A stretch of 32,596 nucleotides of DNA. Origin: a virus (lineage: Duplodnaviria > Caudoviricetes). Shown piece after piece: positions 746 to 24,923 of this stretch. Location of the stretch: IMG/VR virus record IMGVR_UViG_3300044759_000110, positions 1-32,596 of that record; one strand, given 5' to 3'. A program made the position numbers and the translations under genes. The notes below the pieces were generated by a model. It did not search any database and had not been told where the DNA came from. It was given only the letters and a program-made list of their open reading frames with translations. Every line of letters starts with the position of its first letter. Position 1 is the stretch's first letter.

Positions 746-787
746 CCCGCGCGCACGCGCATCATCCAACCTCAACAGGAGGCTCTA

Positions 788-1165
788 ATGGCAGTGACCC
801 ACCCGACCGCAGTGCGAACGGCGCTTGCGGATTTCGTTGTTGACCAACTCGACGTGAACACTCCGCCCGGCAAGCTGATCATGCAGACGGCGGCGAACGC
901 GACGGTCGCAACGCTCACGTTTGCCAACCCGGCGTTCGGTGCTGCAGCAACCGGCACGGCGACGGCGAACGCCATCGTCGCCGACACCAACGCAGTGGGC
1001 GGCACCATCGCGAAGGCGGAGCTACGCCAAGGCGGTGGCACACCGATCATCCTGTGCTCGGTCACGACAACGGGCGGCGGTGGCGACATTCAATTGAACT
1101 CGGTTGTGATCTCTGCGGGCCAGCAAGTGTCGCTGACCTCGCTGACCTACGCGGCTCCGGCGTAA
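788..1165 (+). CDS. Small beta-rich virion protein (125 aa), candidate fibre bead subunit
   Basis: Strong SD AGGAGG at 777-782; Ala/Thr/Gly-rich; ends DIQLNSVVISAGQQVSLTSLT; paralogous to 18346..18729. The function is inferred. Confidence 0.75.
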   Translation: MAVTHPTAVRTALADFVVDQLDVNTPPGKLIMQTAANATVATLTFANPAFGAAATGTATANAIVADTNAVGGTIAKAELRQGGGTPIILCSVTTTGGGGDIQLNSVVISAGQQVSLTSLTYAAPA

Positions 1166-1215
1166 CGGCCCCCCTAGCGTTGGAGATGGCGAGCGAGTTG
1201 CGCGGAGGAGAGCCA

Positions 1216-1563
1216 GTGTCTCAACCGCGCAACGTCGTGCCATGCGGCACCTGTCATCTGTGCTGCAGGCTGATGACGCCGGTGCGTCCAGAGATGGGCG
1301 ACGACCCTTCGCAGTACATCACGGCGACATGCTTCACGCCCGGCAAAGCGCCGTACATGATCCTCGACCGTCAAGCGAACGGCGATTGCATCTATCTCAG
1401 CGAGAGCGGCTGCACGATCTGGGAACGCGCGCCGCATGCGTGCAAGCAATTCGATTGCCGCTTGATCTTCAAGAACTCTGATCGCATCGGGCGCAAGCTC
1501 GCGATCAAGAACAACGACATGCCCAAAGCAATCTTCGACAGAGGACGTGAGCTTCTGAAATGA
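1216..1563 (+). CDS. YkgJ-family (CxxCxxCC) cysteine-cluster protein
   Basis: PCGTCHLCC...GDCIYL...GCTIWERAPHACKQFDC; GTG start at 1216 has SD GGAGGAG at 1204-1210 (alternative ATG at 1186). Confidence 0.8.
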   Translation: MSQPRNVVPCGTCHLCCRLMTPVRPEMGDDPSQYITATCFTPGKAPYMILDRQANGDCIYLSESGCTIWERAPHACKQFDCRLIFKNSDRIGRKLAIKNNDMPKAIFDRGRELLK

Positions 1564-1739
1564 ACGAGTGGATCGTGCTTGACCCAGAACCGGATGTGGC
1601 TATCGCCACCGGCTTCGCCGAAAGCGAAGACGCGGTGACGTGGGTTGCGCGCGCGCTCGAAGAGACGACCGATGAAGATCGCATCGCGATGCTGAAGCGC
1701 TGCGTTGTCGCGCCACATGATCCTGCGAGGGATTCCTGA
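1560..1739 (+). CDS. Small acidic hypothetical protein (59 aa), absent from the ORF track
   Basis: MNEWIVLDPEPDVAIATGFAESEDAVTWVARALEETTDEDRIAMLKRCVVAPHDPARDS; ATGA overlap upstream and TGATG overlap with the giant gene. Confidence 0.7.
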   Translation: MNEWIVLDPEPDVAIATGFAESEDAVTWVARALEETTDEDRIAMLKRCVVAPHDPARDS

Positions 1740-4700
1740 TGGGCACGATTGCCGAGTTCACCAACGGCACTGGCGCGGCCGGGCTTGTGAACCCGACGAC
1801 GCGCGCGGGTCAGGAATTTCTGACGCCCGGCTACGCGACCGAGACCAACGCCGTGATGCTTCAGTTGATGCGAAGCGGCACGCCGACCGACAATTACATC
1901 GCAGAACTGTGGAGCATGAGCGGGCCGGGCGGGACGCCGGTCGAGCTTCTCCGAACGTCGCGACCTCTTGCGATTGCCACGGTCGTAACAGGAAACCCCA
2001 CGCTGTTCGGGCCATTCGTGTTCGACGTGCCGTTGTCGCTTGCAGCGTCCACGACATATCTGGTCGCGCTCAGGCGAGAATCGGTAACCGATTCCGGCAA
2101 CTACATCAGCATCGGATCGAACACCGCGAGCGGGTATGCGAACGGTCGCTCGTACTCGCACAACGGCACCGCTTGGAATATCGGGTCCGCTGTCACCGAT
2201 TACGGATTCAGAATCCTAGAGACCATCGTTCCCAGCTTCTCGACAAGCATCCCGATGGTGGGACCGTTCAAGACATCGAACGGTCCGCCGCTGGCGCAGA
2301 GCGTTGTCACCACGGCTAGTTTCCAGATCGGCTACACCACCACCGGTTCGCAGTGGGCAGGGCAAACCTTCACGCCTGCCACCGGATTTACGCTCACTGC
2401 GATCTCGCTGTGGCTGTCGCGCATCACGCCAGCGCCGACCTACGGCATCCTGATCACGATCCGGTCGCTCTCTCCAACGGGCACGATCCTCGCCACATCG
2501 GACACCGTCGCGCCCGCCACGGTGGGGAGTGCCAAGAGCTACATCAGGTTCGAGTTTCCATCGGGCTTCACGTTTCAGGCGGGCGTTACCTACGCGATAC
2601 GGGTGCAGACGGTCTCGCTGCAAGCTGGCTACGGCTACAACGCAGGCGGCTCGAACACCGATGTGTTTCCCGGCGAGGGCTCAAACGACAACGGTGAGAC
2701 GGGCGGCGATCTCGGCTTCGTCATGCACGGTGCGTCCACCGACATGTACTACGCTGCGGGCGTAGACGATAACGGCACCACGATCAGGTTTATCAAATCG
2801 AGTGATCCGACCGCTGGGTGGACAACCACGGCTTCGGTCCCCTTGGGCGTACCGTGCACGTCGCTGTCAGCGTATCAGCAAGGCGACACCGTCCACTTCG
2901 TCTACGGCTACTCGAACGCGGGCAATGCGTTCTTGGCCTACCAGAGCCTCGATATGACGCTCGGCGGATTGTCCGGAAACGCCGAGACGATCCTGAACGG
3001 CGTGATCACGACCGGGCAGTTGGGCGCGCTGCAGCATAGTGCTTCGGTGGTCGTGCGCTCGAACGGCGAAGTGGTCGTGCTGCACAATGGCGTGCAGACC
3101 AAGACATCGGGCACCTACCGCGCGCGCGTCTATCACACGCGGCGAACTGCGGTGAACACGTGGTCCGCTCCTGTACAGTGCGATTCGAATACGGCTGGCG
3201 ATTTCGTGGTTCGCGAAAGCGTGCTTGGCGCAGGCGATGTCGTCCACTTGTTCTGGTTCAACCAGACCATCGGACAGGGGCTATCGCGAACGCTCAGCGC
3301 GGCCAATGCACTAAGCACCGTGGTCGATTGCGGATCGGTTGGCACCAGCACCTACGATTATGCAGCGGACGCGCTGGTCGAGGGTGCGAACACGCGGGTC
3401 GCTTACGCCTACGGCAACAGCACCAGCAACAACATCGGGCGCTTTCTCAGCGCCGCAGCGCCGTCGTTCACCACCGGCTCACAACTTCCGGCAGGCGCGG
3501 CGCAGCCTGCAAGGCTAAGGCACGACGGCACTGATTTCTGGGTGTTCTTCCGCAACTCGGCGGGCAGCGCTGTCAACGTCGCGAAATCCGTGAACTACGG
3601 GCAGACGTGGGATTCGCCCGCCACGTCGCTTGTCGCTGCGGTCCCGGCATCGCGTGCTTCGCTATCAAGAGACGGAGCAATTTATCAGTACGGTTCTTCC
3701 ATCGTCATCCCGTACTTCGTCGTCGATGGCAGCACATGGAGATACAACCAGCACGTTGCTCGCTATATCGCGCAGGCGGATGCGTGGAACGTCAACGACA
3801 AGAGCACTGGCGTCACCTTGTCGAACGGCGACAAGACAGCGACCACTTCAAACGGCAGCCAATATCTACGCTCGACCCAAGGCAACCCATCGGCGACAGC
3901 GGCAAAACTCTACGCCGAGTTCAAGAAAGAACTCGGCACATCGTCGCTGACGGTGGGATTCGCGGATGGTGATTCCACGCTGGCGAACGCCGCTGCACTG
4001 GCAGCCACACTCAACATCAACCACCTGTCCCAGAACGGTGGCAAGATTTTTATTAACTCCGTCGATACCGGAGTAAACATCGGCACCTTTGCGAACGGTG
4101 ATGTCGCTTGCGGCGCGTGGGATACTTCAGCCAAGCTGGTCTGGTTTCGGAAAAACGGCGGGCTGTGGAATAACAGTGCGACAGCCGATCCGGCGACGGG
4201 CGTCGGGGGCATCAGCTTCCCCACGCCACCAACGAACAGCAAGTTGCTCGGCGTCATAATAAACTCTGGCGATTCGCTGAGTGTTCGCACTGAGGTCGCC
4301 GATTACACGCTCGCTCCACCGATTGGATTCAAATCGTGGATGGGCGAGATCATCCCGACCGCTGGTGCGTGGAACGTCAGTGACAAAGACGCATCGCTCT
4401 CGCTCAGTGGTAGCGACAAGATCGTAACGTCGAGTGTGACGCAATCGCAGGCTATTCGCTCGACCAGAACGATCCCCCTTGGGGCCGCAGAAAAATACTA
4501 CGCAGAATACTTGCAGGACAATTACGTCACCGATCATGCTTTCGGTATCAAGCAAACTGGCAACGCCTTAAATATTATCAACAACGGCTGCGCCATCCTC
4601 TCGCAGATGGGCAATGTCCTCGTTGATAACGTCTCTCAGGGATCGTTTTCTGGATCGCCGTCAGCCCTCGTAGACGGAGATATTTACAGCGTCGCTTGGA

Positions 4701-7700
4701 ATGTCCCTGCCAAACTTATCTGGTTTCGAAAGAACGCCCTTAACTGGAACAACAACGCCAGCGCTAATCCGGCGACAGGTGTAGGTGGATATTCGACAGC
4801 GGCCTTCCCCGCCGCAAACTATGCGCTGTTCGCCCAGTTGAGCGGAGTAGCGAGCAAGGGAACGCTCCGCACAGAGAAGGCAGAGTTCACTCTACCGACA
4901 CCGGTTGGCTTCCTGTCGTGGATGGGTGAGACGCTCGTCATCCCCGACATGGGCACGCTGACATGCGGTGCAGCGAGTGTCTCAGGCGTTGGTGCAGCAA
5001 CGCATCACGGCACCGGCACGCTCACTGCGCAGAGCGTCTCGCTCGTCAACCCGGGCGGCATCTCCGGATCGACCGGCACCGGCGCGCTGACGGCGCTGTG
5101 GACCGCGCCTGTATCAGCCAACACGATCCTGAACTCCGAAGAATTTGACAACGCCGCATGGTCGAAGACCAACGCGACAGTAACAGCCAATGCTGTCACG
5201 GCACCGAACAGTACGCTGACAGCCGATCAAATCTTCGACGACGCGGTGGCGTCTGGCGGTCACGCCGTTTCGATGTCGCGACCGACGGTCGCCGGTCAGC
5301 CGCACACGTTGTCGGTCTACGCCAAGGCTGGCACGCGCGGCTTCATCAGGCTGTCTCTCAGCGGCGGCACGTACTATTCGGTCTTCGATCTCAACGCCGG
5401 AACGCTGGGCCTCACGTCGGGGCTGACATCAAGGAATATCGAAGCGGTCGGCGGCGGCTGGTATCGATGTTCGATCACGATCACCATTGCCGGTGCGAGC
5501 GTCACCAACACTATCGCGTTGATGCCCGCCAACCAAGTGAACCCGAACTATGCTGGCGATGGCAGTTCGCTTTATCTCTGGGGCGTGCAGCTAGAACAAG
5601 CATCCGCTGCAAGCGCCTACACAAAACCGGCTGGCAGCGAGATCAGCCCGCTCACCGGCGTTGGCACCGCAAGCTGGAACGCGACAGGTGCGCTGCCTGC
5701 GGGAATTGCCGCCGCGTCTGGCATTGGCGAGGTCACGACGCCGCCAGCTATCGGCGTCGGCGTGCTGACGACAGGCGTTGCAGACCTCGATGCGTTCGGC
5801 AATGTGCGCTCGACCGGCTCTGGTGCAGGCGGTCCAGCCACCATCGAGATCAGCGGCACCTCGACGGAAACCGATTGGGGCAATCAGGCTTTCGGCCTTC
5901 ACCGCATCGGACAGACCTTCCTCTCTGTCGCCGCGCGCATCGACAAGATCGCCGTGCCGCTGGGCAGGCTTGGTAGCCCGACGGACGACGTGGTCGTGAA
6001 GGTCTACGCGGTAGACGCGCAGCATTATCCAGCCACGTTGCTCGGCACATCGAACGCAGTGGCGGGGATGTCTCTCGCCGACAATTCAACGCCGACGGTC
6101 GAGTTCACATTCACGCCGCAGATCGCGGTGACGAACGGCACCGAGTATGCGTGGGTGCTGGAGCGCACCGGCGCGCTCGACGACAGCAACGAATTTTTGA
6201 CGCGGCTGGTTGACCCGCCGACCTACTCCGGCGGCAAGGCGATCTATTACAACGCAGGTGTGTGGGGCGATGTCGGCCCTTACGACATGCTCTGCACCAT
6301 CAGCCAGTACACCGTTGGCGGCTTGCAGCCCGCGAGCGCGTCGCTGTCAGGTGTTGGTATCTCGCGCATCGTGATGACCGGCGCGCTGGTGCAGGGCGCT
6401 GGCGAGATCACCGGCGTAGGCTTCTCCGGCGCGACCTCGACCTCGACGTTGCTGCAGGCAAGGATGATGCCGCTCACATTGGGCGGCGGCATCTCGTCAT
6501 CGACCGGTGGATCAACGCGCACGTCAGAAATCGCTATCGACGGCGCGCGTACCACGTACGTGTTCGGCACCTCCCCGCAGCCGCGTGTCGGACAGAACTT
6601 CGTCTCGCAGGGCGAGGTGCTCACCAGCGTCACGGTCTACGTCTCGAAGAACGCAGCACCGACCGATTCTCTGCGTGTAAAGATTCAGAGCGTCGATGCC
6701 GCTCATTTGCCAAGTAGCGCTCTGGTCGTACAATCGCTTTACATCACCGGGTCAACGCTGCCGACCGGCGCGCCGGTAGCTCGCACGTTCACGTTCAGCA
6801 CGCCGGTCTATCTCCAGAAGGGAATCGAGTACTGCGTTATTGTCGAGCGCACTAGCTCCGCGAACGCCACCAACAACTACAACATCAGCGCGACCACGAA
6901 CGTCTATGCGCCAGCCTCCTTCCTGTACATGTCCACGAGCACGTGGTTGCTCGACGACACGCGCGATCTCGTGGTCTCCATCTCTCAGATCGAAGGCGGA
7001 TTGTTCTCGGCTCGCGGCTCGATCAACGGCGCGGGCATCGGTCCGGCGTGGGTCGGCACCGGCGCGCTTGGCCCGTCACTGCCGCCGCTGCCTGATCCGA
7101 TCACGCTTGGCGCGACGATCAGTATCGATTTCCTCAAGCGCACGGGATGGGTGCAGGGCGTTGGCAACGTCGGCATCGAGACCTTGCTCGGCAACGATCC
7201 GAACTACACTAGCTCAGTAACCGGCTACGACCCGCTGGGGATCACGCAGTGGGGATATAACCATCGCAAGGGTGCGCTTCAGCAACTACCGGCGTTCATC
7301 GGAGCGCTGCGTGATCAGGTGCTCGCTGGCAACTCGGTGATCATCAAGTTTCAATCGGACGATCAGCCCTTCGGAGAGTACGAAGAAGAGTTCGACCTCG
7401 ACATCATGAACACCGGCAATGATCGGTGGGCGTGGGTCGCCGCGCAGGGAGATTACGTTTCCTCCGGCATGTACTGGGATTTCGGCCCGGAGTTGGGGCC
7501 GGGTGCTTGGTTCTTCTCACCGCTGCCCGGGCTGATCAATTCGTTCGGCCTCACCTTCCACAAGGGGCAGAACCGGTTTGAGACCGCCGCCAACAATGTG
7601 ATGTCTGCGGGCTCGGCGATTCTCGGCGAGAACAACGCGCCAGCCGCGAACCCGATGCGCACCGTGATACTTTCGGCGTGGGGCGCGATTGCTTCGATCA

Positions 7701-10700
7701 CCGTATTCAACACGCTGTCGCTTGCGGAGTTGCAGGCGCAAACGGTGCAGCGTATCTACAACGGCGATCCTATCCCGTCGCCGATTGCTGGTGTCGGCGT
7801 CGCGCACTACGTTGCGACCGGCGCGTTCGTCACCGCTCGATCCATTGTTGCTGGCGCTGGTCTCGTGCAGCACGCTGCATCCGGCACGATGCCTGCGCAG
7901 ATCGCATCGCTTGCAGGCGTCGGCACCTCGTCGTCGGCTGGCACTGCGGCGCTGCCGTGGATCACACCAGCGTTGCCGCCCGACGCAATCATCAACGTCG
8001 ATTTCCTGACGAACAAGGGATTCGTTGCAGGCACCGGCGAGGTGGGCATCGAGACCTTGATCGGCTCCGATCCGGAAACAGAGTGGGCACTCGGCCCGAC
8101 GGAGTACGATCCGGCGTACGTCACGCAGTACGGATACGAGCCATATCGCAAGCCGGGCGAAGTGATGCCCGCGATGATCGGCGCGCTGAAGACCGCAGCG
8201 CTCGGCGGCAAATCGATTGTCATCAAATTCCAGACGCCACCGTCGCCGCCCGCGAGCAATTGGGTCAACGTCTACTTGATGAAATCGATGGGCTTCGACG
8301 GGCCTTTCTGTGAAGGCTTCCCGGTCCAATCGAACTTCGGCACCAGCAAGTGGCAGCAACAGATCGGCGATGGCGCGTGGACCGCGCGCGCTCCGGGCAA
8401 CATCAACGCTCTCGGCTTCAACGTCGTCGGCCCGCAAGCTACCGGGCGAATGGATTTCGCTGCAGGCAATTTCGGTTCGGGGACGCATGCGTTCTCGGCG
8501 GCGGATTGGTCTGGTCCTCTCGCGCTTGCGATGATCATTACGTACGAGGCGATCACCTCGATCACGGTCTATGAGACGCTTGCGCTTCCTGCGCTGCAGG
8601 CGAAGACCGCGCGCACACTGCAGGTCGCGACAGGCTCGTTGAACTACGCGACGATGACCGGTCTCGGTTCTGCGGTCACCGGCGTCGGCGGCACAGGTGC
8701 CTTCATTCCGGCAGACGCGATTGCTGCAGGCGCTGGCATCTCCGGCACCTATGGCGGCACCGGTGTGCTCACCTCGAACGCATCGCTCGCTGGCGTCGGC
8801 AAAGTGATCGCAACAGGCAGCGGCGCGCTTGTTGTCCCGGGTGTTGCGGCGATGGCTGGCGTCGGCGTCGTCCGCGCGGTCGGCACCGCAGCGCTGAATG
8901 CACAGGCTGCGGTCGCCGTCGGCGCAGGCATCGCGCGTCACGTTGCAACAGGCACGATGCCGTCAACGTACGCGACGCTCGCTGCCGCTGGCTCTGTCGT
9001 CGCTGGACCCGAAGGCACCGGCACCTTCGTTGCGCAGGTCGCGAAGGTCGTTGCATCTGGCGTCGCGCATCACATCGCGACCGGCGCGCTTGTCGATCAG
9101 GTGGCGTCGATCACCTCGACCGGCAACGTGCGATGGAGCGGCACCGGCGCAATGCCCGCAGGCGTCGCGGCTGTTGCTGGCGCAGGCGTCTCGTCTTCGA
9201 GCGTGACAGCGGCGAGCTTGCTTGCGGCGCGTTCGCAGGTCGAGGGCTGGGAAGGCGTTGCGATCATCGCTGGCACCGGCGCGCTGGTCGCTCAATCGCA
9301 TACGCTCGCATCGTCGGGCGGCGTTCTCACTTCCGGCACGGGCGCGTTGCTCGATCAGGCGAGCGCTCTTGCTGGCGCTGGTCTCTCTAGATCGCTGGGC
9401 ACCGGTGCACCGATCTCGCAGGCCAGCGTAATTTCCGGCGCTGGCGTCTCGTCTGTGGCAGGCGCTGGCGCGATCATCCCGACGACGGCGGCTGTCGTCT
9501 CCGGCGCTGGCATCATCATCCCGGCTCCGTCAGGGACCGGCGCGCTGTCGTCGGGCGTGTCGCGCGTTACGGCTTTCGGCGTTGTCGAGCGCGTCATGAC
9601 CGGCGTGCTCGTCGCGCAGAATCGCGTGATGTCGAGCACGGGCGGCGTGAGCCGAACGGTCGGCACCGGCGCGATTCTTGGGACAGAGGCGGCGGCTGCA
9701 GGTGTCGCGGTCGGCACCTCGCGCGGCACCGGCGCACTGGTCACGGTCTCCACTCTCGCAGGCGCGGGCGTGTCGCGCGTCGAGGGTGCAGGCGCGCTGT
9801 CGAGTGGCGTGGCAGCGGTCGCTGGCACGGCGGTTGCGACGCAACTCGGCAACGGCGCGCTGACCGCATCGAGCGCTGCGGTCTCCGGCGCTGGCTTCGT
9901 GCAGCACGTTGTCGTATCGGCGGCGCTGGCTGCGCAGGCGGCTCAGGTCACGGCTGGCGGTCTGTCGTCCTCCACGGCAACCGCTCCCCTGCAGGCGTCG
10001 CGCTCGACCGTGCAGGGCGTCCAAGGCGTCATGATCGGCTTGGGCGTCGGCGACCTGCAGGCTCAATCCCGGCTGATGGCGGGCGCTGGTCTGGTCAGGG
10101 CTATCGGCACGGGTTCACTTTCCGTTGCTGATTCGTCCACCGTGAACGCCGTAGGGGAAAGCGATTCATCTGGCAGCGGCGTGCTGGGATGTTCGCCGTC
10201 GATCATAGAAGCCACCGGCAAGGGGGATATCGAGGGCACCGGTGAGCTTGAAGCCGCCGGGGCTGTCCTTGCCTCAACCGGCGGATCGGTGCGCTGGGCG
10301 GGCACCGGTGAGCTTGAGGCGCAGGATCGCAAGGTCGTCGGCATCGGGCGGGCCATCGCCACCGGCACCGGCGCGCTGCAGCTTCCGACCGTCGCCACGG
10401 TCACCGGCACCGGCACGACCTCGTCGCGCGGCTTCGGCAACATGACCTCGAAGCGCGCCACCATCTACGGCACGGCGTTCCTTTCGACGTTGGGCTCCGG
10501 CGAGCTTCAGGCTCAGAACCGCAAGCTGACCGGCGTCGGCAGGGTGATCGCGACCGGCACCGGCATCCTGCGGCAGGCGCGTCCGGACCTCGACGGCGAG
10601 GGTCTCTCGTTCTCGCGGGGCACCGGACAGATCAAGCCAAGGTCGGCGCAGATACATGCGTTCGGCGTCGAGACCGCGTACGGCGAAGGCGATCTCGTCT

Positions 10701-10918
10701 CGCTGCCTGTCACGATCAGCGGCTCGAACCTGATCGAGGGCGACGCTGTCATCGATGCGGCATCGGCGCAGATCGTCGGCGTCGGCGAGGTCGGCGCGTA
10801 CATTCCGGCAGCACCGCCCGATCCTCCGGGCTCATACCCGGGCACGACGACGTGGGCAGGCTACACGCGCACGCCTTCGCAGCTTCCGCCGCCGTGGTGG
10901 ATGAGGAAGGCTGCATGA
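1739..10918 (+). CDS. Giant modular fibre/adhesin protein (3059 aa)
   Basis: Four GQ(E/T/N)F jelly-roll-type modules, a BNR/propeller-like region (SVNYGQTW), two SPRY/B30.2-like domains, one CBM-like module (NTILNSEEF...GWYRCS...LWGVQLE), two related IDFL..GIETL domains and ~46 Gly/Ala-rich 21-aa repeats. Confidence 0.85.
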   Translation: MGTIAEFTNGTGAAGLVNPTTRAGQEFLTPGYATETNAVMLQLMRSGTPTDNYIAELWSMSGPGGTPVELLRTSRPLAIATVVTGNPTLFGPFVFDVPLSLAASTTYLVALRRESVTDSGNYISIGSNTASGYANGRSYSHNGTAWNIGSAVTDYGFRILETIVPSFSTSIPMVGPFKTSNGPPLAQSVVTTASFQIGYTTTGSQWAGQTFTPATGFTLTAISLWLSRITPAPTYGILITIRSLSPTGTILATSDTVAPATVGSAKSYIRFEFPSGFTFQAGVTYAIRVQTVSLQAGYGYNAGGSNTDVFPGEGSNDNGETGGDLGFVMHGASTDMYYAAGVDDNGTTIRFIKSSDPTAGWTTTASVPLGVPCTSLSAYQQGDTVHFVYGYSNAGNAFLAYQSLDMTLGGLSGNAETILNGVITTGQLGALQHSASVVVRSNGEVVVLHNGVQTKTSGTYRARVYHTRRTAVNTWSAPVQCDSNTAGDFVVRESVLGAGDVVHLFWFNQTIGQGLSRTLSAANALSTVVDCGSVGTSTYDYAADALVEGANTRVAYAYGNSTSNNIGRFLSAAAPSFTTGSQLPAGAAQPARLRHDGTDFWVFFRNSAGSAVNVAKSVNYGQTWDSPATSLVAAVPASRASLSRDGAIYQYGSSIVIPYFVVDGSTWRYNQHVARYIAQADAWNVNDKSTGVTLSNGDKTATTSNGSQYLRSTQGNPSATAAKLYAEFKKELGTSSLTVGFADGDSTLANAAALAATLNINHLSQNGGKIFINSVDTGVNIGTFANGDVACGAWDTSAKLVWFRKNGGLWNNSATADPATGVGGISFPTPPTNSKLLGVIINSGDSLSVRTEVADYTLAPPIGFKSWMGEIIPTAGAWNVSDKDASLSLSGSDKIVTSSVTQSQAIRSTRTIPLGAAEKYYAEYLQDNYVTDHAFGIKQTGNALNIINNGCAILSQMGNVLVDNVSQGSFSGSPSALVDGDIYSVAWNVPAKLIWFRKNALNWNNNASANPATGVGGYSTAAFPAANYALFAQLSGVASKGTLRTEKAEFTLPTPVGFLSWMGETLVIPDMGTLTCGAASVSGVGAATHHGTGTLTAQSVSLVNPGGISGSTGTGALTALWTAPVSANTILNSEEFDNAAWSKTNATVTANAVTAPNSTLTADQIFDDAVASGGHAVSMSRPTVAGQPHTLSVYAKAGTRGFIRLSLSGGTYYSVFDLNAGTLGLTSGLTSRNIEAVGGGWYRCSITITIAGASVTNTIALMPANQVNPNYAGDGSSLYLWGVQLEQASAASAYTKPAGSEISPLTGVGTASWNATGALPAGIAAASGIGEVTTPPAIGVGVLTTGVADLDAFGNVRSTGSGAGGPATIEISGTSTETDWGNQAFGLHRIGQTFLSVAARIDKIAVPLGRLGSPTDDVVVKVYAVDAQHYPATLLGTSNAVAGMSLADNSTPTVEFTFTPQIAVTNGTEYAWVLERTGALDDSNEFLTRLVDPPTYSGGKAIYYNAGVWGDVGPYDMLCTISQYTVGGLQPASASLSGVGISRIVMTGALVQGAGEITGVGFSGATSTSTLLQARMMPLTLGGGISSSTGGSTRTSEIAIDGARTTYVFGTSPQPRVGQNFVSQGEVLTSVTVYVSKNAAPTDSLRVKIQSVDAAHLPSSALVVQSLYITGSTLPTGAPVARTFTFSTPVYLQKGIEYCVIVERTSSANATNNYNISATTNVYAPASFLYMSTSTWLLDDTRDLVVSISQIEGGLFSARGSINGAGIGPAWVGTGALGPSLPPLPDPITLGATISIDFLKRTGWVQGVGNVGIETLLGNDPNYTSSVTGYDPLGITQWGYNHRKGALQQLPAFIGALRDQVLAGNSVIIKFQSDDQPFGEYEEEFDLDIMNTGNDRWAWVAAQGDYVSSGMYWDFGPELGPGAWFFSPLPGLINSFGLTFHKGQNRFETAANNVMSAGSAILGENNAPAANPMRTVILSAWGAIASITVFNTLSLAELQAQTVQRIYNGDPIPSPIAGVGVAHYVATGAFVTARSIVAGAGLVQHAASGTMPAQIASLAGVGTSSSAGTAALPWITPALPPDAIINVDFLTNKGFVAGTGEVGIETLIGSDPETEWALGPTEYDPAYVTQYGYEPYRKPGEVMPAMIGALKTAALGGKSIVIKFQTPPSPPASNWVNVYLMKSMGFDGPFCEGFPVQSNFGTSKWQQQIGDGAWTARAPGNINALGFNVVGPQATGRMDFAAGNFGSGTHAFSAADWSGPLALAMIITYEAITSITVYETLALPALQAKTARTLQVATGSLNYATMTGLGSAVTGVGGTGAFIPADAIAAGAGISGTYGGTGVLTSNASLAGVGKVIATGSGALVVPGVAAMAGVGVVRAVGTAALNAQAAVAVGAGIARHVATGTMPSTYATLAAAGSVVAGPEGTGTFVAQVAKVVASGVAHHIATGALVDQVASITSTGNVRWSGTGAMPAGVAAVAGAGVSSSSVTAASLLAARSQVEGWEGVAIIAGTGALVAQSHTLASSGGVLTSGTGALLDQASALAGAGLSRSLGTGAPISQASVISGAGVSSVAGAGAIIPTTAAVVSGAGIIIPAPSGTGALSSGVSRVTAFGVVERVMTGVLVAQNRVMSSTGGVSRTVGTGAILGTEAAAAGVAVGTSRGTGALVTVSTLAGAGVSRVEGAGALSSGVAAVAGTAVATQLGNGALTASSAAVSGAGFVQHVVVSAALAAQAAQVTAGGLSSSTATAPLQASRSTVQGVQGVMIGLGVGDLQAQSRLMAGAGLVRAIGTGSLSVADSSTVNAVGESDSSGSGVLGCSPSIIEATGKGDIEGTGELEAAGAVLASTGGSVRWAGTGELEAQDRKVVGIGRAIATGTGALQLPTVATVTGTGTTSSRGFGNMTSKRATIYGTAFLSTLGSGELQAQNRKLTGVGRVIATGTGILRQARPDLDGEGLSFSRGTGQIKPRSAQIHAFGVETAYGEGDLVSLPVTISGSNLIEGDAVIDAASAQIVGVGEVGAYIPAAPPDPPGSYPGTTTWAGYTRTPSQLPPPWWMRKAA
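8687..10792 (+). repeat. Uninterrupted array of ~33 degenerate ~21-aa (~63-nt) coding repeats
   Basis: Consensus xxGTGALxAQxAxVxGxGxx; recurring DNA word GGCACCGGCGCG; counted by eye. Confidence 0.85.
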
Positions 10919-11712
10919 CGAAATCGAAAGCGAAGATGCGCGGCTTCATCAGGCAACCAAGCGGGCCGACGCAGCCGCTGCCTGAACAGAAGCCGCCGCT
11001 CGCTTGGATGATCAACCGGCTGCAGGTCGATGCAGAAGGCCAGCCTTTGATGGAGGGCATCTTCTCGAACTACAACGACGACATCCTCGTCGAGGCTGAT
11101 GCGGCAACGCTGGTCGGTCGTGCCTCGAATGTGCGCGGACCGGTCGAGAGAATCGCAATCGGCACAGGGCTGAGCATCGAGAACAACACGCTGAACGCCA
11201 GCGGCACGCCGGGGATACAAGGACCCGTCGGGCCTGTCGGACCGCCGGGACCTGCAGGCGCGTCGTCGTCGATGTTTCTTTATCGCTTCGATTCGAACAC
11301 CGCGTACAACGATCCGGGCGCTGGCCGCATGCGTTACAACGCATCGACGCCAGCGGCGACGACCAAGCTCTACGTTGACCGGCTCACGCAAGACGGTCTC
11401 GATCCGACGGTGATGTTCACGCTTGCGACCTTCGATGACACCTTCATCATTCAAGAGCGCGGCACCTCTGTGCGCTATCAGCAATTCAAGTTGATGGGAC
11501 CCGCGACGATTCTCGGCGGCGATTGGTTCGAGGTGCCGGTGCAATACGTGACGCAGAACGGCGCGAACTTCTCCAACAACATGGAGATCACCGCTCTGTT
11601 GCGCACGATAGGCAAGCAAGGCATTCCCGGCCCGTGGACGCAGATCACGCAGGCAGCATACAACGCACTGTCGCCGCCTGATCCCGCAGTGCTCTACGTG
11701 ATCATCGGATGA
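10915..11712 (+). CDS. Collagen-like fibre protein with C-terminal adaptor motif (265 aa)
   Basis: ATGA overlap with the giant gene; six G-X-Y triplets at 11203-11259; ends TQAAYNALSPPDPAVLYVIIG. Confidence 0.75.
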   Translation: MTKSKAKMRGFIRQPSGPTQPLPEQKPPLAWMINRLQVDAEGQPLMEGIFSNYNDDILVEADAATLVGRASNVRGPVERIAIGTGLSIENNTLNASGTPGIQGPVGPVGPPGPAGASSSMFLYRFDSNTAYNDPGAGRMRYNASTPAATTKLYVDRLTQDGLDPTVMFTLATFDDTFIIQERGTSVRYQQFKLMGPATILGGDWFEVPVQYVTQNGANFSNNMEITALLRTIGKQGIPGPWTQITQAAYNALSPPDPAVLYVIIG

Positions 11713-13193
11713 CGGCGCTCAATCACGCCGACATGATCTTCTACAAAGGCATGGCGGCGGACAGGGTCTACGCCGGATCAGTAAAGGTGTGGGAGAGGTT
11801 CTCTCCGCTCAACTTGACAGGCTGCAAGGTCTGGCTTGATGCATCGAAGCTCGCGGTGCCGAACGGCGCACCGGTGTCGTCGTGGACAAACCTCGCGGGC
11901 TCACCTCACCCGGCGCTGTTGGGTTCGCCTTCGCCGGTGATGATGACCAACGCGATCAACACCAGCATGCCGTGCGTGCGTGTCACGCAAGGGCAGGGAC
12001 GGTGGCGGTTCACTGGTCTCGATCTCGACAGGGAGTACACGGCTTTTATCGTAGCGCGTCGCTGGCAGTTGCGCGGCGGTCGCATCCTCACCTCACTCGG
12101 CACGACCTCGAACTTTCTCATCGGCTGGCATGGCAATGAGTTCGAGTGCATGTATCAGGAGGGATGGTTCAACACGCCGGGACCGACGGGCGGTCTACTC
12201 TCGACGACGGCGTGGCGCATGTACTCTGCGGACGGATCGGCGTCGAACACGTCGCGCCTGTTCGGCTTCGGCTACTTGCTCGGTCAACATCCAACGCCGC
12301 CAGCGAGCAAGGGCTGGGGCGGCACGCTGAACATCAGCGGCTACACCAACGACGTTGATATCGCGGTGTCGCAGCAAGCCGATTGCGATGTCGCAGAACT
12401 GATCGTCTACAACAGGAAGATGCCCGACCTCGAACGACAGAGGGTCGAGAGCTACCTGATGACGAAGTGGAATCCGATCACGGCGTTCAAGCCGACCGAT
12501 CTCGGATCGAACCTCGTCGCATGGTTCGACGCGAAGGATGCAGCGTCGGTGCAGCGTGGCACAGGTCCATCTACTCGCGGCGCTTACTACGGCGTCTACA
12601 ACTGGAAGAACAAGGGCGCGGGCGCGATGACGCTCACGCAATACACCGACGCTTATCGACCGCTCTACACTTCAGGCGTGTCGGTGAACTTCGCTCAGGG
12701 CGAGATCATGAACCCGGCGAACGCACCGGCATCGTTCGATGTCTACGTCGTCAGCCGACCGAATCTCGCAGGTGATTGGCGAACGCTACTGCGCAGTGCG
12801 CAGGGGCACGAGATGATCATCGAGCACAATAGCAATCGGCTCGGTGTCTACACGACGACCGCCTTCAATCCTGCGGGAGCGCTGGAATGGCCGGGCGTTG
12901 ACGGGCTTGGCTTCGCTCGCGTCGCTGCAAGCACTGCCACGCTGATCTCGCGCGACGGCGGACCGCTGACAGCAACGGCCACCGCGCTTCCTGCGGGAAG
13001 CCCGGCGGCTACCATGTTCGGAGGATATGCGAGCGCTCCGCCTTCGCAGCCTTGGGGCAAGGTCTACGAGGTCATCTTCGTGCCGTACAATCTCGAAGGC
13101 GCGCGGCTGATGATCGAAGGCTATCTCATGCATCGGCACGGCTTCGCTTCGCTTCTTCCATCCAACCATCCGTACAAGATCAACCCACCGTAA
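11709..13193 (+). CDS. Tandem LamG/ConA-like domain protein, putative receptor-binding fibre tip (494 aa)
   Basis: Two homologous domains (FSP..L..WLDAS / FKP..L..WFDAK; ELIVY..VESYL / EVIF..IEGYL); N-terminal DRVYAGSVKVW motif. Confidence 0.75.
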   Translation: MTALNHADMIFYKGMAADRVYAGSVKVWERFSPLNLTGCKVWLDASKLAVPNGAPVSSWTNLAGSPHPALLGSPSPVMMTNAINTSMPCVRVTQGQGRWRFTGLDLDREYTAFIVARRWQLRGGRILTSLGTTSNFLIGWHGNEFECMYQEGWFNTPGPTGGLLSTTAWRMYSADGSASNTSRLFGFGYLLGQHPTPPASKGWGGTLNISGYTNDVDIAVSQQADCDVAELIVYNRKMPDLERQRVESYLMTKWNPITAFKPTDLGSNLVAWFDAKDAASVQRGTGPSTRGAYYGVYNWKNKGAGAMTLTQYTDAYRPLYTSGVSVNFAQGEIMNPANAPASFDVYVVSRPNLAGDWRTLLRSAQGHEMIIEHNSNRLGVYTTTAFNPAGALEWPGVDGLGFARVAASTATLISRDGGPLTATATALPAGSPAATMFGGYASAPPSQPWGKVYEVIFVPYNLEGARLMIEGYLMHRHGFASLLPSNHPYKINPP

Positions 13194-18345: not shown

Positions 18346-18729
18346 ATGGATTATTCACTGAACGTAAAACGTCAGCGCATGCAGGCTGTGCTCAACGCCA
18401 TCGATGGCGGCAACGGTCCCGGCATCATCGAGCTTCGTGACAGCGAGCGCGTGATCCTCTGCACGCTGTTGCTGCAGCGACCCTCGTTCTATCTGGTCGG
18501 CGAGAACCTGCAGCTATGCGCGCCGACGACAGGCTTCGTTTCCATCGCGGGCGTCGCCAGCATCGGCACCATCAGCGATGGCTCCGGCATCATTGTCGTG
18601 GACGAGATGACGGTCGGCATCGATACGACGCCGGACCAGATTCACGATTATGAAATCGTGCTCGACGACAACGTGCTCGATGTCGGCAAGCAAGTGACGA
18701 TCACGAACGCAACGCTCGAACATGGGTAA
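18346..18729 (+). CDS. Small beta-rich virion protein (127 aa), paralogue of 788..1165
   Basis: Shared pattern D...PG.(L/I), TL....P.F, I.L...V...G.QV(S/T)(L/I)T. Confidence 0.7.
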   Translation: MDYSLNVKRQRMQAVLNAIDGGNGPGIIELRDSERVILCTLLLQRPSFYLVGENLQLCAPTTGFVSIAGVASIGTISDGSGIIVVDEMTVGIDTTPDQIHDYEIVLDDNVLDVGKQVTITNATLEHG

Positions 18730-19217: not shown

Positions 19218-20143
19218 GCATCATCCGCATGCTGACACGGCTCACCGCAGTGGCGGCGTTGCGTGGCACGACGTGGGCAGATGATCGCGTGTTCGACAGC
19301 GACAACACGCCGCTCGGTCAGGCGCTGGTGCTGAACGAAGCGGCGAAGCCTTACATCGTCGTCTACACCGACAGCGATAGCCGTGGCGGCGTTGACGGCA
19401 CGAACCTCTATCTCGTGGATCGCGAACTGAACCTCGTCATCGAGATCGGCGTCGCGTCGAAGATCGAGGGCGAGACCGGAGGAGAGACACTGAAGATTCC
19501 GCAGACCGACGAGGGCATGGAGATCGCGCTCGACATGGTCGAGGACCAAGCGCTGGGCTCGTTGTTCGGCAATCCGCAGAACGAGTGGGCCGAGTTGCTG
19601 AAGCACTTCGTCATCAAGGTGGTGCGCGTCAGCGGGCAGCGGGGCGCTGCGGCAGAGCGAGACCGTCGCTGGGCCGCGCGGCAACTGAGCATCATCTGCG
19701 ACGTGCAAGCCGACCTGCCGCCGGGCGTCGAGATACCGGCGAACCATCCGATCAGGAAGTTCATCACGGTCGCGAAAGAGAATCCGGAAGCGCACATGGA
19801 GCACGCTGCAGAGATATGCGAGGCGCTCGTGAGCCGCACGCCAGCGCCGGGCTGGGAGCAATTGCAGGCGTGGCTCGGTCTGCGCCGCGAAGGGCTGCGC
19901 GCCATCGGCAAGGCACCGCTGTCGTCCGACCTGCCAGCGATGGCGACCGGCTACGGCGACGACCTGACCGACACGAAGGGCGAAGCGCCGATCCTGCGCA
20001 AGCTCGGCTACGACGACATCGAAATGCCGGAGGGCATGGAAGAGGTCGGCCTGATCGATGTCGGCGTGATCAGCACCAACGTCGTGGTGATCAAGCCGGA
20101 CGAGAAGAAAGACAAGGTCGTGATCGATGGCAGCGGGGATTAA
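19214..20143 (+). CDS. Putative tail terminator/completion protein (309 aa)
   Basis: Neck position; AALRGTT.A.DRVFDS and PYIVVYTD motifs; ATGA overlap. Confidence 0.55.
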   Translation: MSIIRMLTRLTAVAALRGTTWADDRVFDSDNTPLGQALVLNEAAKPYIVVYTDSDSRGGVDGTNLYLVDRELNLVIEIGVASKIEGETGGETLKIPQTDEGMEIALDMVEDQALGSLFGNPQNEWAELLKHFVIKVVRVSGQRGAAAERDRRWAARQLSIICDVQADLPPGVEIPANHPIRKFITVAKENPEAHMEHAAEICEALVSRTPAPGWEQLQAWLGLRREGLRAIGKAPLSSDLPAMATGYGDDLTDTKGEAPILRKLGYDDIEMPEGMEEVGLIDVGVISTNVVVIKPDEKKDKVVIDGSGD

Positions 20144-20765
20144 ACTCAACATCGACACGTCGGAGCTACTCGATTTCGTCAAGCATCTGCAGAAGGCAGC
20201 GAAGGTCACCAAGCCGATCCTCGCTGTCGGGCTCAACGATGTCGGCGATTCTCTGGTGTCGTTGCTGGCGGTCAACCTGACGAAACAGACCGGGCTGTCG
20301 CTGGAGGAAGTGCGCGGGCTGTTCAAGGTCAAGCGCGCCAAGGTGGCCGACCTCACCTACGACGTGAGTATCGATCCGGCGCTTCTCGAAGACACGGCGC
20401 GCAACCTCGAAGGCGGACGCGAGAGCACCGATTTCGGAAAGATGGACCCGAACCGATTGGTGGTCTGGGTGTCGAAGAACGACGAGTTGGTCTGCATGGA
20501 TTGTGAAGAGATGCAGGCGGCTGGTCCGATGCCTGCGTCGGTCGCCGCGAGTAGGCACCCGAGACACCCGAACTGCCGGTGCATCCTCCTGCCCTATGTG
20601 CAGAAGGGCAAACGTCTGCCGGTGACGATGACGACAGTGACCGGCACCAGCGCGACGAAACGTGGAGGAAGGAAGACCATCGTCGATCAGGATCGAACGC
20701 TGCGCCAACTCGCGCAGGACATCCTCGACAAGACATCGAAGGCGATAAGGATCGAACTGTCATGA
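20127..20765 (+). CDS. Minor tail/neck protein (lambda gpZ-like N-terminus) with a MuF-type CxxC...HPNCRC module
   Basis: GLNDVG...KQTGL...VR N-terminal pattern; VCMDC...HPNCRC; lies directly before baseplate V. Confidence 0.55.
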   Translation: MAAGIKLNIDTSELLDFVKHLQKAAKVTKPILAVGLNDVGDSLVSLLAVNLTKQTGLSLEEVRGLFKVKRAKVADLTYDVSIDPALLEDTARNLEGGRESTDFGKMDPNRLVVWVSKNDELVCMDCEEMQAAGPMPASVAASRHPRHPNCRCILLPYVQKGKRLPVTMTTVTGTSATKRGGRKTIVDQDRTLRQLAQDILDKTSKAIRIELS

Positions 20766-23445: not shown

Positions 23446-24923
23446 GCGACATCGTCACTGAAGGCATCATCCAGTATCCGGGCGCGAAGCTCCTCTATCG
23501 CAACGCGACCGGTCTTGAGAAGGCGATGGCCGACGTTGACGGCGAGCGCTTGATCGGCACCTACGCCGAGATCGTCGCCGATCAGTGGGACCCGTACCGC
23601 ATCAGCTACAACAACCTGCCCTATCTCGGCTACGCGCACGGCGTGATGTTGTGGGAGGACGGCTGGAGCGAGAGCACGCAGCGCGAGTGGATCGCGCGGC
23701 AGTTCGAGTACAAGAGCCTGCGCGGGACGCAAGCCGGAATCGAGATGGCGCTGAACTACAGCGGTCGCGATTTCAGTGGACCTCCCGGCTACACCATCGT
23801 GCAGGCGATCCGTCCGCCGCAATCGTTCTTCGCCTCGCCGTCGCTGAGCAAGGCGGAATACGATTTCTGGATTCACCTGATGCCGGAGTTGCGGATCACC
23901 TTCTATGAAGGGATCGGCTGGGACAGCGAAGAAGTTCTCTTCTCCGACGACGGTGGCTGCAACTGGCACGTCGGGCTCGACGACGGCGAAGCGCTGCACG
24001 GGCGCAAGGCTTTCCTTCGCGTGCGTGGCGTCGATCAGCCGCTGGAGATTTACCAGTTCACCAAGACGATCAACGGCAAGACCTCGATTGATTACGAGCG
24101 CGTGTCGATCCCCGGTCACGGCGGCTTGGCGATGATGTGCGGCGACATCTTCGTCAACGAGGACGACCGCTACGTCTGCGCAGAGAAGATCGTGCCGCAG
24201 CTTGTCACGGTCCGCGTCGATGGCACGTACGACCACGAGCAATCGTTGCTGCATCTCGACACGGTGGTGCCCGGGCTCGACCCTATCGATGTGCGCTACG
24301 AGCGCGACAGCGACATCGGATGGGGCAACAGCTTTCTGTTCGTCAACGATTGGCAGGACAGCCGCAACTTGATCGTGCCGTCGTATCCCGTCGTCGGCGG
24401 TGGCGATCTTGTGGCAGGCGCTGCGACATGCGTGAGCGGATGGACCGCGCACGAAGGCTTCGGGAATCTCGTGGCGCAGCCCACGCAGATAACCAGCACG
24501 AGCCCGCTCTATGGCGATCCGCTCGTGGTCTACGCCGACGCAGGATACGACGCAGCGAGGATGCTGGCTGATCGCATCTTCCTGCACGACCCGGAGATCG
24601 TCGGCGTCATCACCGGCGGCATCTCGTTCGTAGGTGTCGATTACGTTTCGTGGCCCGCGTACACGGCTGATCTCATGATCGCGCTGCGCACGTGGGACAA
24701 GAAGTGGAGTTGGTTCGCTGACGAAGGTTATCTGCACGACGACAACTACTTCGCAAGCGCGCCTGACCTTGATGATTTCGACCGTAGCAATCGCGCGGTC
24801 GTCACCTCGCAGGCGCTGCGGGATCGAGTGCGCGTTGCTTACGATCCGACACGCTTGATCGAACTACGCGAACGCGCTTGGCCCGAAACCACAATAGATC
24901 AGCAAGTGCCGAACTTGCTCTAG
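23442..24923 (+). CDS. Baseplate/tail protein I (P2 gpI-like), C-terminally extended (493 aa)
   Basis: NATGLEKA, WDP...LPYL, W...W.E..QR, RGT..GIE.AL; follows J. Confidence 0.8.
   Translation: MSDIVTEGIIQYPGAKLLYRNATGLEKAMADVDGERLIGTYAEIVADQWDPYRISYNNLPYLGYAHGVMLWEDGWSESTQREWIARQFEYKSLRGTQAGIEMALNYSGRDFSGPPGYTIVQAIRPPQSFFASPSLSKAEYDFWIHLMPELRITFYEGIGWDSEEVLFSDDGGCNWHVGLDDGEALHGRKAFLRVRGVDQPLEIYQFTKTINGKTSIDYERVSIPGHGGLAMMCGDIFVNEDDRYVCAEKIVPQLVTVRVDGTYDHEQSLLHLDTVVPGLDPIDVRYERDSDIGWGNSFLFVNDWQDSRNLIVPSYPVVGGGDLVAGAATCVSGWTAHEGFGNLVAQPTQITSTSPLYGDPLVVYADAGYDAARMLADRIFLHDPEIVGVITGGISFVGVDYVSWPAYTADLMIALRTWDKKWSWFADEGYLHDDNYFASAPDLDDFDRSNRAVVTSQALRDRVRVAYDPTRLIELRERAWPETTIDQQVPNLL

What the first reader, a model, noticed from the sequence alone, without database searches (positions are those of the whole stretch)
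788..10918. Candidate beads-on-a-string virion fibre system: repeat template plus small bead subunit
Seen: a 125-aa beta-rich gene with a strong SD sits in the same operon as a 3059-aa protein with ~46 repeats of ~21 aa (GxGxLxxxxxxxxGxG). A paralogue of the small protein lies among the neck genes, and two repeat copies occur in the gpI-like protein. From recollection, to be verified: cyanophage A-1(L) has bead-chain neck fibres built from small subunits on a repeat-containing protein. Inference: each repeat (or pair) donates beta-strands to one bead, so repeat number sets fibre length like a tape measure, and ~10 glycan-binding-type domains are displayed toward the N-terminal end. This would be a long multivalent appendage for capsule, EPS or surface binding.
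Basis: partly seen in the sequence, partly recalled or inferred. Interest (0 to 1): 0.88.

Follow-up and report, generated by a model that had tools for sequence, protein, structure and literature searches.

The report
Giant beaded phage fibre with cargo
An uncultured phage encodes a small protein predicted to fold like the 'beads' of a few recently solved phage fibres, next to a 3,059-residue protein with about 45 short repeats that likely serves as their string, which would give a fibre with roughly four times more beads than the longest solved one we found, likely carrying about ten surface-binding domains.

Summary
Observation essentially confirmed. The 125-aa protein is a homologue of the phage 7-7-1 garland protein (PDB 9RKV; profile E 5e-8; fold Z 13.6), a fold shared with Bas63/Sf14 whiskers, GP4 fibre I and phi812 arm segments. 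In those phages, dimers thread on an extended 'rope'. The giant carries 38 clear and about 44-46 total 21-aa repeats, which are pseudo-palindromic (G3-G5-L7 / L14-G16-G18). A model of four beads plus 54 rope residues scores 0.72 against 0.00 for the best control, with two monomers per repeat; it may pass by likeness to solved complexes. The rope alone gives no confident fold. Rope genes follow bead genes in 43 of 48 loci with enough sequence. The A-1(L) precedent is wrong: that fibre has no template. The mechanism is known (2-11 dimers solved), and this scan found long ropes on other DNA before. What differs here is ten cargo domains, three of them inserted mid-repeat. A side lead: repeat proteins gp108/gp109 of cultured phage 7-7-1 are candidates for its unidentified garland string or capsid fibres. 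Attachment site, host and ligands are unknown.

The parts
777..782 (+). Shine-Dalgarno AGGAGG of the bead gene
   Evidence: sequence
788..1165 (+). bead subunit, 125 aa; 7-7-1 garland / whisker / GP4 fibre-I fold
   Evidence: PHROG 3758 virion structural protein E 4e-7; profile vs 9RKV_A E 4.8e-8; AF2 pLDDT 96.7; Z 13.6, rmsd 1.9, 120 aligned
1054..1563 (+). intervening Cys-cluster ORF (start uncertain); not a constant part of the cassette
   Evidence: PF03692 E 5e-4, below cut-off; bead-to-next-large-ORF spacing varies among relatives
1560..1739 (+). intervening 59-aa ORF overlapping both neighbours
   Evidence: no Pfam or PHROG hit
1739..10918 (+). giant rope protein, 3059 aa: cargo domains plus about 44-46 docking repeats
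   Evidence: same N-terminal frame in independent contigs L001 and L002
1739..2737 (+). cargo D1, D2: choice-of-anchor R domains
   Evidence: NF041539 E 6e-8 and 2e-7, above cut-off
2738..3775 (+). cargo D3: possible beta-propeller (inferred from one Asp-box-like motif; label recalled)
   Evidence: motif at aa 617; no Pfam, NCBIfam or PDB hit
3770..4963 (+). cargo D4, D5: duplicated domain (phrog_10080, unknown function)
   Evidence: E 7e-18; D4-D5 E 4e-35; no useful PDB hit
4940..5095 (+). two repeats plus the left half of a split repeat (aa 1068-1119)
5129..5650 (+). cargo D6: RcGTA head-spike-fibre-like domain, inserted inside a repeat
   Evidence: NF048003 E 4e-37; PDB 6TB9 Rcc01080 E 1e-24
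5648..5809 (+). right half-repeat (seen by eye) plus two repeats (aa 1304-1357)
5822..7006 (+). cargo D7 and D8 (choice-of-anchor-R-like), with two to three repeats between them (aa 1523-1585)
   Evidence: D8 NF041539 E 2e-7; D7 had no NCBIfam hit but matches D8 at E 2e-16 and D1 at E 1e-9; repeats
7070..8620 (+). cargo D9 and D10 (duplicated, unknown), each following a left half-repeat, with two repeats between them
   Evidence: D9-D10 E 8e-32; Atlas LamG-like lead 0.91 with only 103 of 256 shared features; halves
8621..10795 (+). main rope block, about 33 contiguous 20-24-aa repeats
   Evidence: aa 2510-2563 modelled with four beads
10796..10918 (+). Pro/Trp-rich C-terminal tail with a PxSYxG-like motif shared by close relatives; candidate anchor (inferred)
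   Evidence: similar tail in 7 of 14 rope C-termini listed
10915..11712 (+). downstream fibre/adaptor gene (short collagen, PF24243 tip motif); also present in relatives that lack bead and rope
11709..13193 (+). 494-aa virion protein following the adaptor; link to the rope not shown
   Evidence: phrog_10356 E 9e-11
18346..18729 (+). distant bead paralogue among neck genes; conserved whether or not the rope is present
24390..24512 (+). two degenerate rope-like repeats in a variable loop of the gpI-like baseplate wedge protein (23439-24923)

Best explanation
The two genes most likely build a rope-and-bead virion fibre: the 125-aa protein is predicted to have the garland/whisker fold with an open beta-sheet groove, and each 21-aa repeat of the giant would run through two bead monomers as an added strand. 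Shown: bead homology and predicted fold, repeat periodicity and mirror symmetry, gene coupling. Predicted: the rope's Leu7 and Leu14 sit in the same pocket (bead residues 88, 90, 100-105, 112-125) of two monomers, with the strand running in opposite directions, which would explain the palindrome. Inferred: the two monomers form the family's usual dimer. About 44-46 sites would load about 45 dimers, so repeat number would set bead number and length (about 120-320 nm at 2.7-7 nm per site). Cargo domains loop out at the repeat centre or between repeats along the N-terminal part. The fibre is probably tethered to the head or neck by its C-terminal tail and serves reversible, multivalent binding to capsule, EPS or surfaces before tail attachment.
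For: Bead: profile hit to 9RKV_A, E 4.8e-8; hhalign prob 96.8 to 7-7-1 gp103; VIA Z 13.6 (rmsd 1.9, 120 aligned), Sf14 neck chain 9C39_K Z 9.2 (2.5, 102), phi812 9EUF_b Z 6.2 (3.8, 104), GP4 8JOU_a Z 5.3 (4.1, 93); Bas63 9MT4 chains by Foldseek. Published mechanism: whisker dimers on a rope that completes incomplete sandwiches (PMC12609058); six dimers on scaffold linkers (PMC13433997); 11 dimers on A1002 rope residues 243-468, about 20.5 aa per dimer by my arithmetic (PMC13730344). Complex model: score 0.72 vs best of 3 controls 0.00; the mark was reached by 116 of 157 solved and 2 of 215 mismatched pairs; runs agree in at least 93% of contacts; partner pLDDT at least 66; four beads cover rope residues 1-44. 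Mirror correlation 0.65 about position 10.5, next best 0.25, reached by 0 of 2000 column permutations. Rope alone: pLDDT 43-61, pTM 0.49. Co-occurrence: 43 of 48 bead loci with at least 5 kb downstream (32 of 37 not used for training); no rope-profile hit on the opposite strand in 85 loci; main bead and rope both present in 3 and both absent in 2 of 5 near-complete genomes. The pair also occurs in Vibrio myophages and a P22-like podophage.
Against: No experiment. Like complexes have been solved, so the complex score may reflect memory, and the job differs from the tool's calibration. Bead-bead contacts were not reported, so dimer identity is inferred. 4 of 48 bead loci show no rope within about 8 kb and 1 is borderline. 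The loci are related and were not corrected for phylogeny. The rope-alone run was a monomer on a register-shifted alignment, so a trimeric self-fold was not tested. No collar, nozzle or wedge domain is fused to the giant, so the anchor is unidentified. Nine of ten cargo domains have no ligand evidence.
Confidence: 0.85

Rival explanations
1. Same bead-on-rope assembly, but it lies as a compact garland or wrap on the capsid, neck or tail (reinforcement, shielding, or a folded-back trigger) instead of an extended search fibre. This differs from the best explanation only in geometry and use.
For: The closest bead homologue forms a baseplate garland. A1002 fibres wrap the tail tube, partly stacked. 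Bas63 whiskers are proposed to brace the head-tail joint.
Against: Ten cargo domains, one homologous to the capsule-binding RcGTA head spike fibre, suggest display. Rope length varies widely among relatives (about 8-41 units per block in stand-alone ropes), which fits a free appendage better than a fitted brace.
Confidence: 0.25
2. The repeats fold on their own (a beta-solenoid or trimeric beta-spiral shaft), and the small protein is an independent decoration or chaperone.
For: The AF2 model of five repeats is nearly all strand. A few bead loci lack a rope. The neck paralogue exists without this rope.
Against: Low and inconsistent confidence alone against a confident interface with beads. No PDB or family match for the repeat. 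Mirror symmetry and insertion of whole domains mid-repeat fit an extended strand better than a solenoid (inference).
Confidence: 0.07
3. A-1(L)-type fibre: beads polymerise head to tail without a template, and the giant is only a terminal cap or anchor.
For: Such a fibre exists, and beads of the A511 type can chain in crystals by exchanging tags.
Against: It leaves about 45 conserved repeats unexplained. A-1(L) beads are trimers, whereas the matched family forms dimers.
Confidence: 0.03

Closest known systems
Pseudomonas podophage A1002 chain-like fibre (nozzle-rope gp39 + 11 gp40/gp41 dimers; PMC13730344)
   Same: Dimers augmenting beta-sheets on an extended rope, about 21 residues per dimer; the rope also carries an Ig-like domain.
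   Different: About 45 sites instead of 11; rope on a separate giant protein, not fused to a nozzle; ten cargo domains; the word 'repeat' does not occur in the paper's main text; myophage-type virion.
Ralstonia podophage GP4 fibre I (gp80 dimers on a separately encoded rope; PDB 8JOU; known to me only through PMC12609058, PMC13730344 and the PDB title)
   Same: Separately encoded rope; a longer rope holds more dimers; fold match Z 5.3.
   Different: Five dimers; an Ig-like fibre-tail adaptor was not identified here.
Agrobacterium phages 7-7-1 / Milano baseplate garland (PDB 9RKV; PMC12796354, PMC10811340)
   Same: Closest bead homologue by sequence and fold; two bead paralogues; genes with 21-aa repeats lie directly downstream.
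   Different: The garland's string is unidentified in print. 7-7-1 gp108 shows no profile similarity to this rope. No giant cargo rope.
Bas63 / Sf14 collar-whisker complex (PMC12609058; PDB 9MT4, 9C39)
   Same: Incomplete-sandwich beads completed by a rope; fold Z 9.2 to Sf14.
   Different: Two dimers on the N-terminus of a collar protein; no cargo.
phi812 arm scaffold/arm segment and A511 BW3/gp105 (PMC13433997; A511 via PMC10811340)
   Same: Bead-coated linkers alternate with folded domains in one scaffold chain; the window's wedge-3-like protein has two rope-like units.
   Different: Three to six dimers, baseplate-bound; larger beads (Z 6.2).
Cyanophage A-1(L) neck fibre (gp82-gp81-gp80; PMC10966104)
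   Same: Bead-chain appearance, with a carbohydrate-binding module at the tip.
   Different: Trimeric beads modelled head to tail with no template; not the precedent.

Membership tests
Rope-and-bead fibres (GP4 fibre I / A1002 / Bas63-Sf14 whisker / Milano-7-7-1 garland / phi812 arm segment) | bead fold: N-terminal helix plus open beta-sandwich | tested here: met
Rope-and-bead fibres | extended partner chain augments the bead's sheet | tested here: met
   prediction only: 0.72 vs best control 0.00; mark reached by 116 of 157 solved and 2 of 215 mismatched pairs; may pass by likeness
Rope-and-bead fibres | about 20-21 rope residues per two monomers | tested here: met
   four monomers touch rope residues 1-44 in the model; period 21; A1002 226 aa / 11 dimers
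Rope-and-bead fibres | beads form C2 dimers through their N-terminal helices | tested here: inconclusive
   bead-bead contacts not reported; rope mirror symmetry is indirect
Rope-and-bead fibres | rope anchored to the virion by a collar, nozzle, adaptor or wedge domain | tested here: inconclusive
   no such domain recognised in the giant; the C-terminal tail is only a candidate
Rope-and-bead fibres | both proteins present in virions as a beaded chain | not testable with these tools
   uncultured virus record, 38% complete
A-1(L) neck fibre | trimeric beads joined head to tail without a template | not tested
   no homo-trimer or homopolymer run was made; definition
A-1(L) neck fibre | homology to gp82/gp81 | tested here: inconclusive
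   a family missing from the rows of a fold search is not excluded
RcGTA head spike fibre domain (cargo D6 only) | NF048003 / Rcc01080 homology | tested here: met
RcGTA head spike fibre domain (cargo D6 only) | binds capsular polysaccharide | not testable with these tools
   reported for the RcGTA protein (abstract of PMC10218006)

The most novel reading that the evidence does not exclude
Bead plus palindromic 21-aa rope is a portable two-gene fibre kit, in which repeat count programs length and any binding domain can be dropped into the middle of a repeat. Here it yields a fibre of about 45 dimers, up to about 300 nm, with ten adhesins. The same kit explains the unidentified fibres of cultured flagellotropic phages: 7-7-1 gp108 (12 strict repeats, about 14-15 with gaps) threaded with garland-type beads would be about 90-105 nm if extended, matching the 88-114 nm capsid fibres whose proteins are unknown, and gp109 / Milano gp3 (5 and 4 repeats) would be the missing garland string.
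Probability: 0.3. Interest if true: 0.8.

Novelty: new variant of a known kind. Interest (0 to 1): 0.55.

Why it matters
Solved rope-and-bead fibres in the papers found here hold 2 to 11 dimers and are described phage by phage. This locus suggests a sequence code for the rope (one mirror-symmetric 21-aa unit per two beads), a natural insertion point for cargo domains, and length set by repeat count, all testable with two recombinant proteins. It also offers named candidate genes for two questions left open in print: the string of the Milano garland (PMC10811340) and the proteins of the flagellum-wrapping capsid fibres of 7-7-1 (PMC12796354). Both phages are cultured. The family is large (1,267 clusters at 50% identity), so many 'hypothetical' small-plus-repeat gene pairs could be annotated.

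Tried and rejected
Single-sequence searches of the bead against Pfam, NCBIfam and PDB gave nothing useful; only the profile reached 9RKV. The Atlas lead PF23140 Gp80 (0.83) did not appear among the 25 of 36 families shown for the 133 alignment members. The repeat has no match in PDB, Pfam, NCBIfam or cultured phages by tblastn. No A-1(L) chain appeared in the displayed fold-search rows; that does not exclude it. I recalled that phage Chi might carry this pair, but the bead and rope profiles found nothing in three loci spanning its record, so this was dropped. The idea that the neck paralogue is dedicated to the wedge-protein repeats was rejected: the paralogue is present in 11 of 11 homologue loci with at least 5 kb upstream, but only 3 of those 11 have rope-like units, and G001 has the paralogue with no rope match. 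Profile comparison of this rope with 7-7-1 gp108 found no similarity, so that link rests on period, gene position and pattern only. Self-blastp of the N-terminal part showed only the diagonal; segment-wise phmmer found the duplications. The host was not determined: the best cultured capsid matches are only 46-47% identical (Pam3, Rhizobium phages), and genome hits of the bead are mostly proteobacterial MAG contigs. Fusions of bead to rope were not searched for. Locus searches with the diverse bead alignment and with the rope alignment could not run for lack of conserved stretches, so rope-anchored sampling (rope without bead) remains untested beyond five genomes.
Full report
Context. The window is a whole virus record of 32,596 bases, estimated 38% complete. 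It holds a myophage-type structural operon: Mu-F-like head gene, DUF2213 protease, Pam3/E217-type cement and capsid proteins, neck genes, P2-like wedge genes and a sheath. The finding sits between the F-like gene and the protease.

Observation. Both ORFs, the SD and the 21-aa period are real. A self-trained profile finds 38 units against 0.3 in shuffles; one trained only on relatives finds 28 against 0.17. With gaps, split and degenerate units the count is 44-46. About 33 units form a block at aa ~2300-3019; the rest lie in twos and threes between folded domains from aa 1068 on. Two small ORFs separate bead and giant here, and the spacing varies among relatives. The unit is mirror-symmetric: G3, G5, L7 face hydrophobic 14, G16, G18 (mirror correlation 0.65, next 0.25, reached by 0 of 2000 permutations).

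The bead. It belongs to a large unnamed family (1,497 proteins at 90% clustering; 1,267 at 50%). A 133-row profile hits PDB 9RKV_A at E 4.8e-8. That chain's sequence matches 7-7-1 gp103 in GenBank numbering. I identify it as the paper's garland protein from its size and its four chains, since the entry's other proteins are the 587- and 298-residue fibres. The AF2 model (pLDDT 96.7) matches 9RKV_A at Z 13.6 (rmsd 1.9, 120 aligned), then a Sf14 neck chain (Z 9.2), HFTV1 (6.3), phi812 (6.2), GP4 fibre I (5.3) and a T4-like baseplate chain (3.9), and Bas63 connector chains by Foldseek. Z under 8 alone is weak; those links rest also on the papers' own comparisons.

What is known. Bas63 whisker dimers wrap a collar rope 'such as beads on a string', the rope completing incomplete sandwiches, and the larger GP4 rope holds five dimers instead of two. 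phi812 scaffold linkers complete sheets between six dimers and alternate with folded domains. A1002 has 11 dimers on a rope of about 300 A. For Milano the authors write that the string is unclear.

Direct tests. Five repeats alone gave pLDDT 61/54/46/46/43 and pTM 0.49 (monomer, register-shifted alignment). Four beads with rope aa 2510-2563 scored 0.72, 0.61 and 0.73 against 0.00 for three controls. The mark was reached by 116 of 157 solved and 2 of 215 mismatched pairs; runs agree in at least 93% of contacts; partner pLDDT is at least 66. The counts hold only roughly for this job, and a pass may come from likeness to solved complexes. All four copies use the same surface and cover rope residues 1-44, that is two monomers per repeat. 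Copy 3 pairs residue 121 with rope Leu28 (position 7) and copy 4 pairs 121 with Leu35 (position 14), with the strand direction reversed, as the palindrome predicts. Which monomers form the dimer was not reported.

Co-occurrence. Of 85 de-duplicated loci with a bead-profile hit, 49 have at least 5 kb downstream. One (L134) holds only the neck paralogue and was set aside. Of the other 48, 35 have a downstream same-strand rope by HMM and 8 more by a 21-23-aa periodicity test (z 7.4-15.8); one is borderline and four have none. Eleven of the 48, including the window, supplied training rows, leaving 32 of 37. No rope hit lay on the opposite strand in any of the 85, and none in 16 bead-less loci (a loose control). 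In 13 bead-less loci the periodicity score stayed at or below 4.2, except for collagen repeats in three. In five records at least 92% complete, main bead and rope were both present in three and both absent in two; the three were chosen for having the bead, and two of them trained the rope profile. Cultured carriers include four Vibrio phages and the P22-like Sphingopyxis phage VSN-002; in the three examined, a repeat gene directly follows the bead gene. Ropes occur alone or at the end of cargo proteins of up to about 2,800 aa. A close relative without the cassette has the downstream adaptor gene extended into a long collagen fibre, which suggests an interchangeable appendage slot (inference).

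Cargo. Ten domains: four choice-of-anchor-R-like (three above the NCBIfam cut-off, the fourth by similarity to them), one possible propeller, two phrog_10080 copies, one RcGTA head-spike-fibre domain and two copies of an unknown domain. The RcGTA protein binds capsular polysaccharide (abstract); the others have no ligand evidence. D6, D9 and D10 each follow a left half-repeat (aa 1111, 1771, 2066). Right halves follow D9 and D10 (2015, 2305) and, by eye, D6 (~1304). Left halves without a partner also occur in the relatives L034 and L006. I infer that domains loop out at the repeat centre.

Paralogue and wedge repeats. The neck paralogue is a true distant homologue but does not track with any rope. 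The wedge protein's two units replace a Pro-rich loop in 3 of 18 distinct homologues (two by score, the third by eye). They probably dock one or two dimers, as in A511/phi812, but they are optional.

Side lead. In 7-7-1 the two garland genes are followed by gp107, by gp108 (12 strict repeats at about 21 spacing, about 14-15 with gaps) and by gp109 (five repeats at exactly 21). Milano's gp3 aligns to gp109 with one 21-residue gap in that block. GenBank annotates all three 7-7-1 genes as structural proteins. Capsid fibres measure about 88-114 nm and their proteins are unknown. Against this link, gp108 shows no profile similarity to this rope.

Novelty. The mechanism is published. My searches (open-licence PMC and bioRxiv only) found no rope longer than 11 dimers, no description of a palindromic repeat code and no mid-repeat cargo. 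The GP4, VP1 and A511 primary papers were not seen, and no supplements were read; either could hold rope sequences or repeat analyses. This scan noted long rope-and-bead loci on other DNA in at least eight earlier findings (unchecked AI notes, seen after my reading was formed); look-ups by this sequence, by place and for the 7-7-1 or cargo angle returned nothing.

Papers as seen. PMC10966104: abstract, passages, section 8. PMC12796354: abstract, passages, sections 7, 10, 11, 13, 14. PMC13730344: abstract, passages, sections 9, 11, 12. PMC10811340, PMC13433997, PMC12609058, PMC10491603: passages only. PMC10218006: abstract only. The 7 nm upper bound per repeat is standard extended-strand geometry (own knowledge); 2.7 nm is 300 A divided by 11.

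Verdict: new variant of a known kind; mechanism confidence 0.85; interest 0.55.

Noticed in passing
L043:8297-10740 (phage 7-7-1 gp108, gp109); L175:1527-3916 (Milano gp2, gp3): 21-aa repeat proteins directly downstream of the garland genes; Milano gp3 lacks exactly one 21-aa unit relative to 7-7-1 gp109. Candidates for the unidentified garland string or capsid-fibre core.
   Followed up: partly
L039:10417-12426, L041:10411-12162 (Vibrio phages K354, 501E54-1); L040:5956-7422 (Sphingopyxis phage VSN-002): Cultured phages with bead plus rope: nearly pure 21-aa ropes in the Vibrio phages, and a 23-aa rope in an ORF not annotated in the VSN-002 record.
   Followed up: partly
L130:1098-4331; L128, L129: Relatives lacking bead and rope carry a long collagen-type protein at the same slot; in L130 it is a homologue of window 10915-11712.
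   Followed up: partly
window 18346-18729: Bead paralogue kept at 62-71% identity in relatives whether or not a rope is present; its partner peptide is unknown.
   Followed up: partly
L005, L008, L014-L018, L087, L098, L109: Loci with two bead paralogues close together, as in A1002 and 7-7-1.
   Followed up: no
L010/L012, L028, L005: Rope function split over two or three consecutive genes (cargo-rich proteins with few repeats, then a repeat-rich protein).
   Followed up: no
L009, L015, L016, L032, L036 rope C-termini: A different tail type (a charged stretch then a short hydrophobic end), suggesting alternative anchors in other phage groups.
   Followed up: no
window 20127-20765: Neck-1/tail-completion-like protein carrying a Cys/His motif like that of Mu-F-type head morphogenesis proteins.
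   Followed up: no
window 30447-32213: Tail sheath with an internal stretch (aa 213-322) weakly matching a head-decoration family (phrog_9703, E 1e-3).
   Followed up: no
L088, L103, L106, L123: Bead genes with no detectable rope in about 8 kb downstream; unexplained.
   Followed up: no
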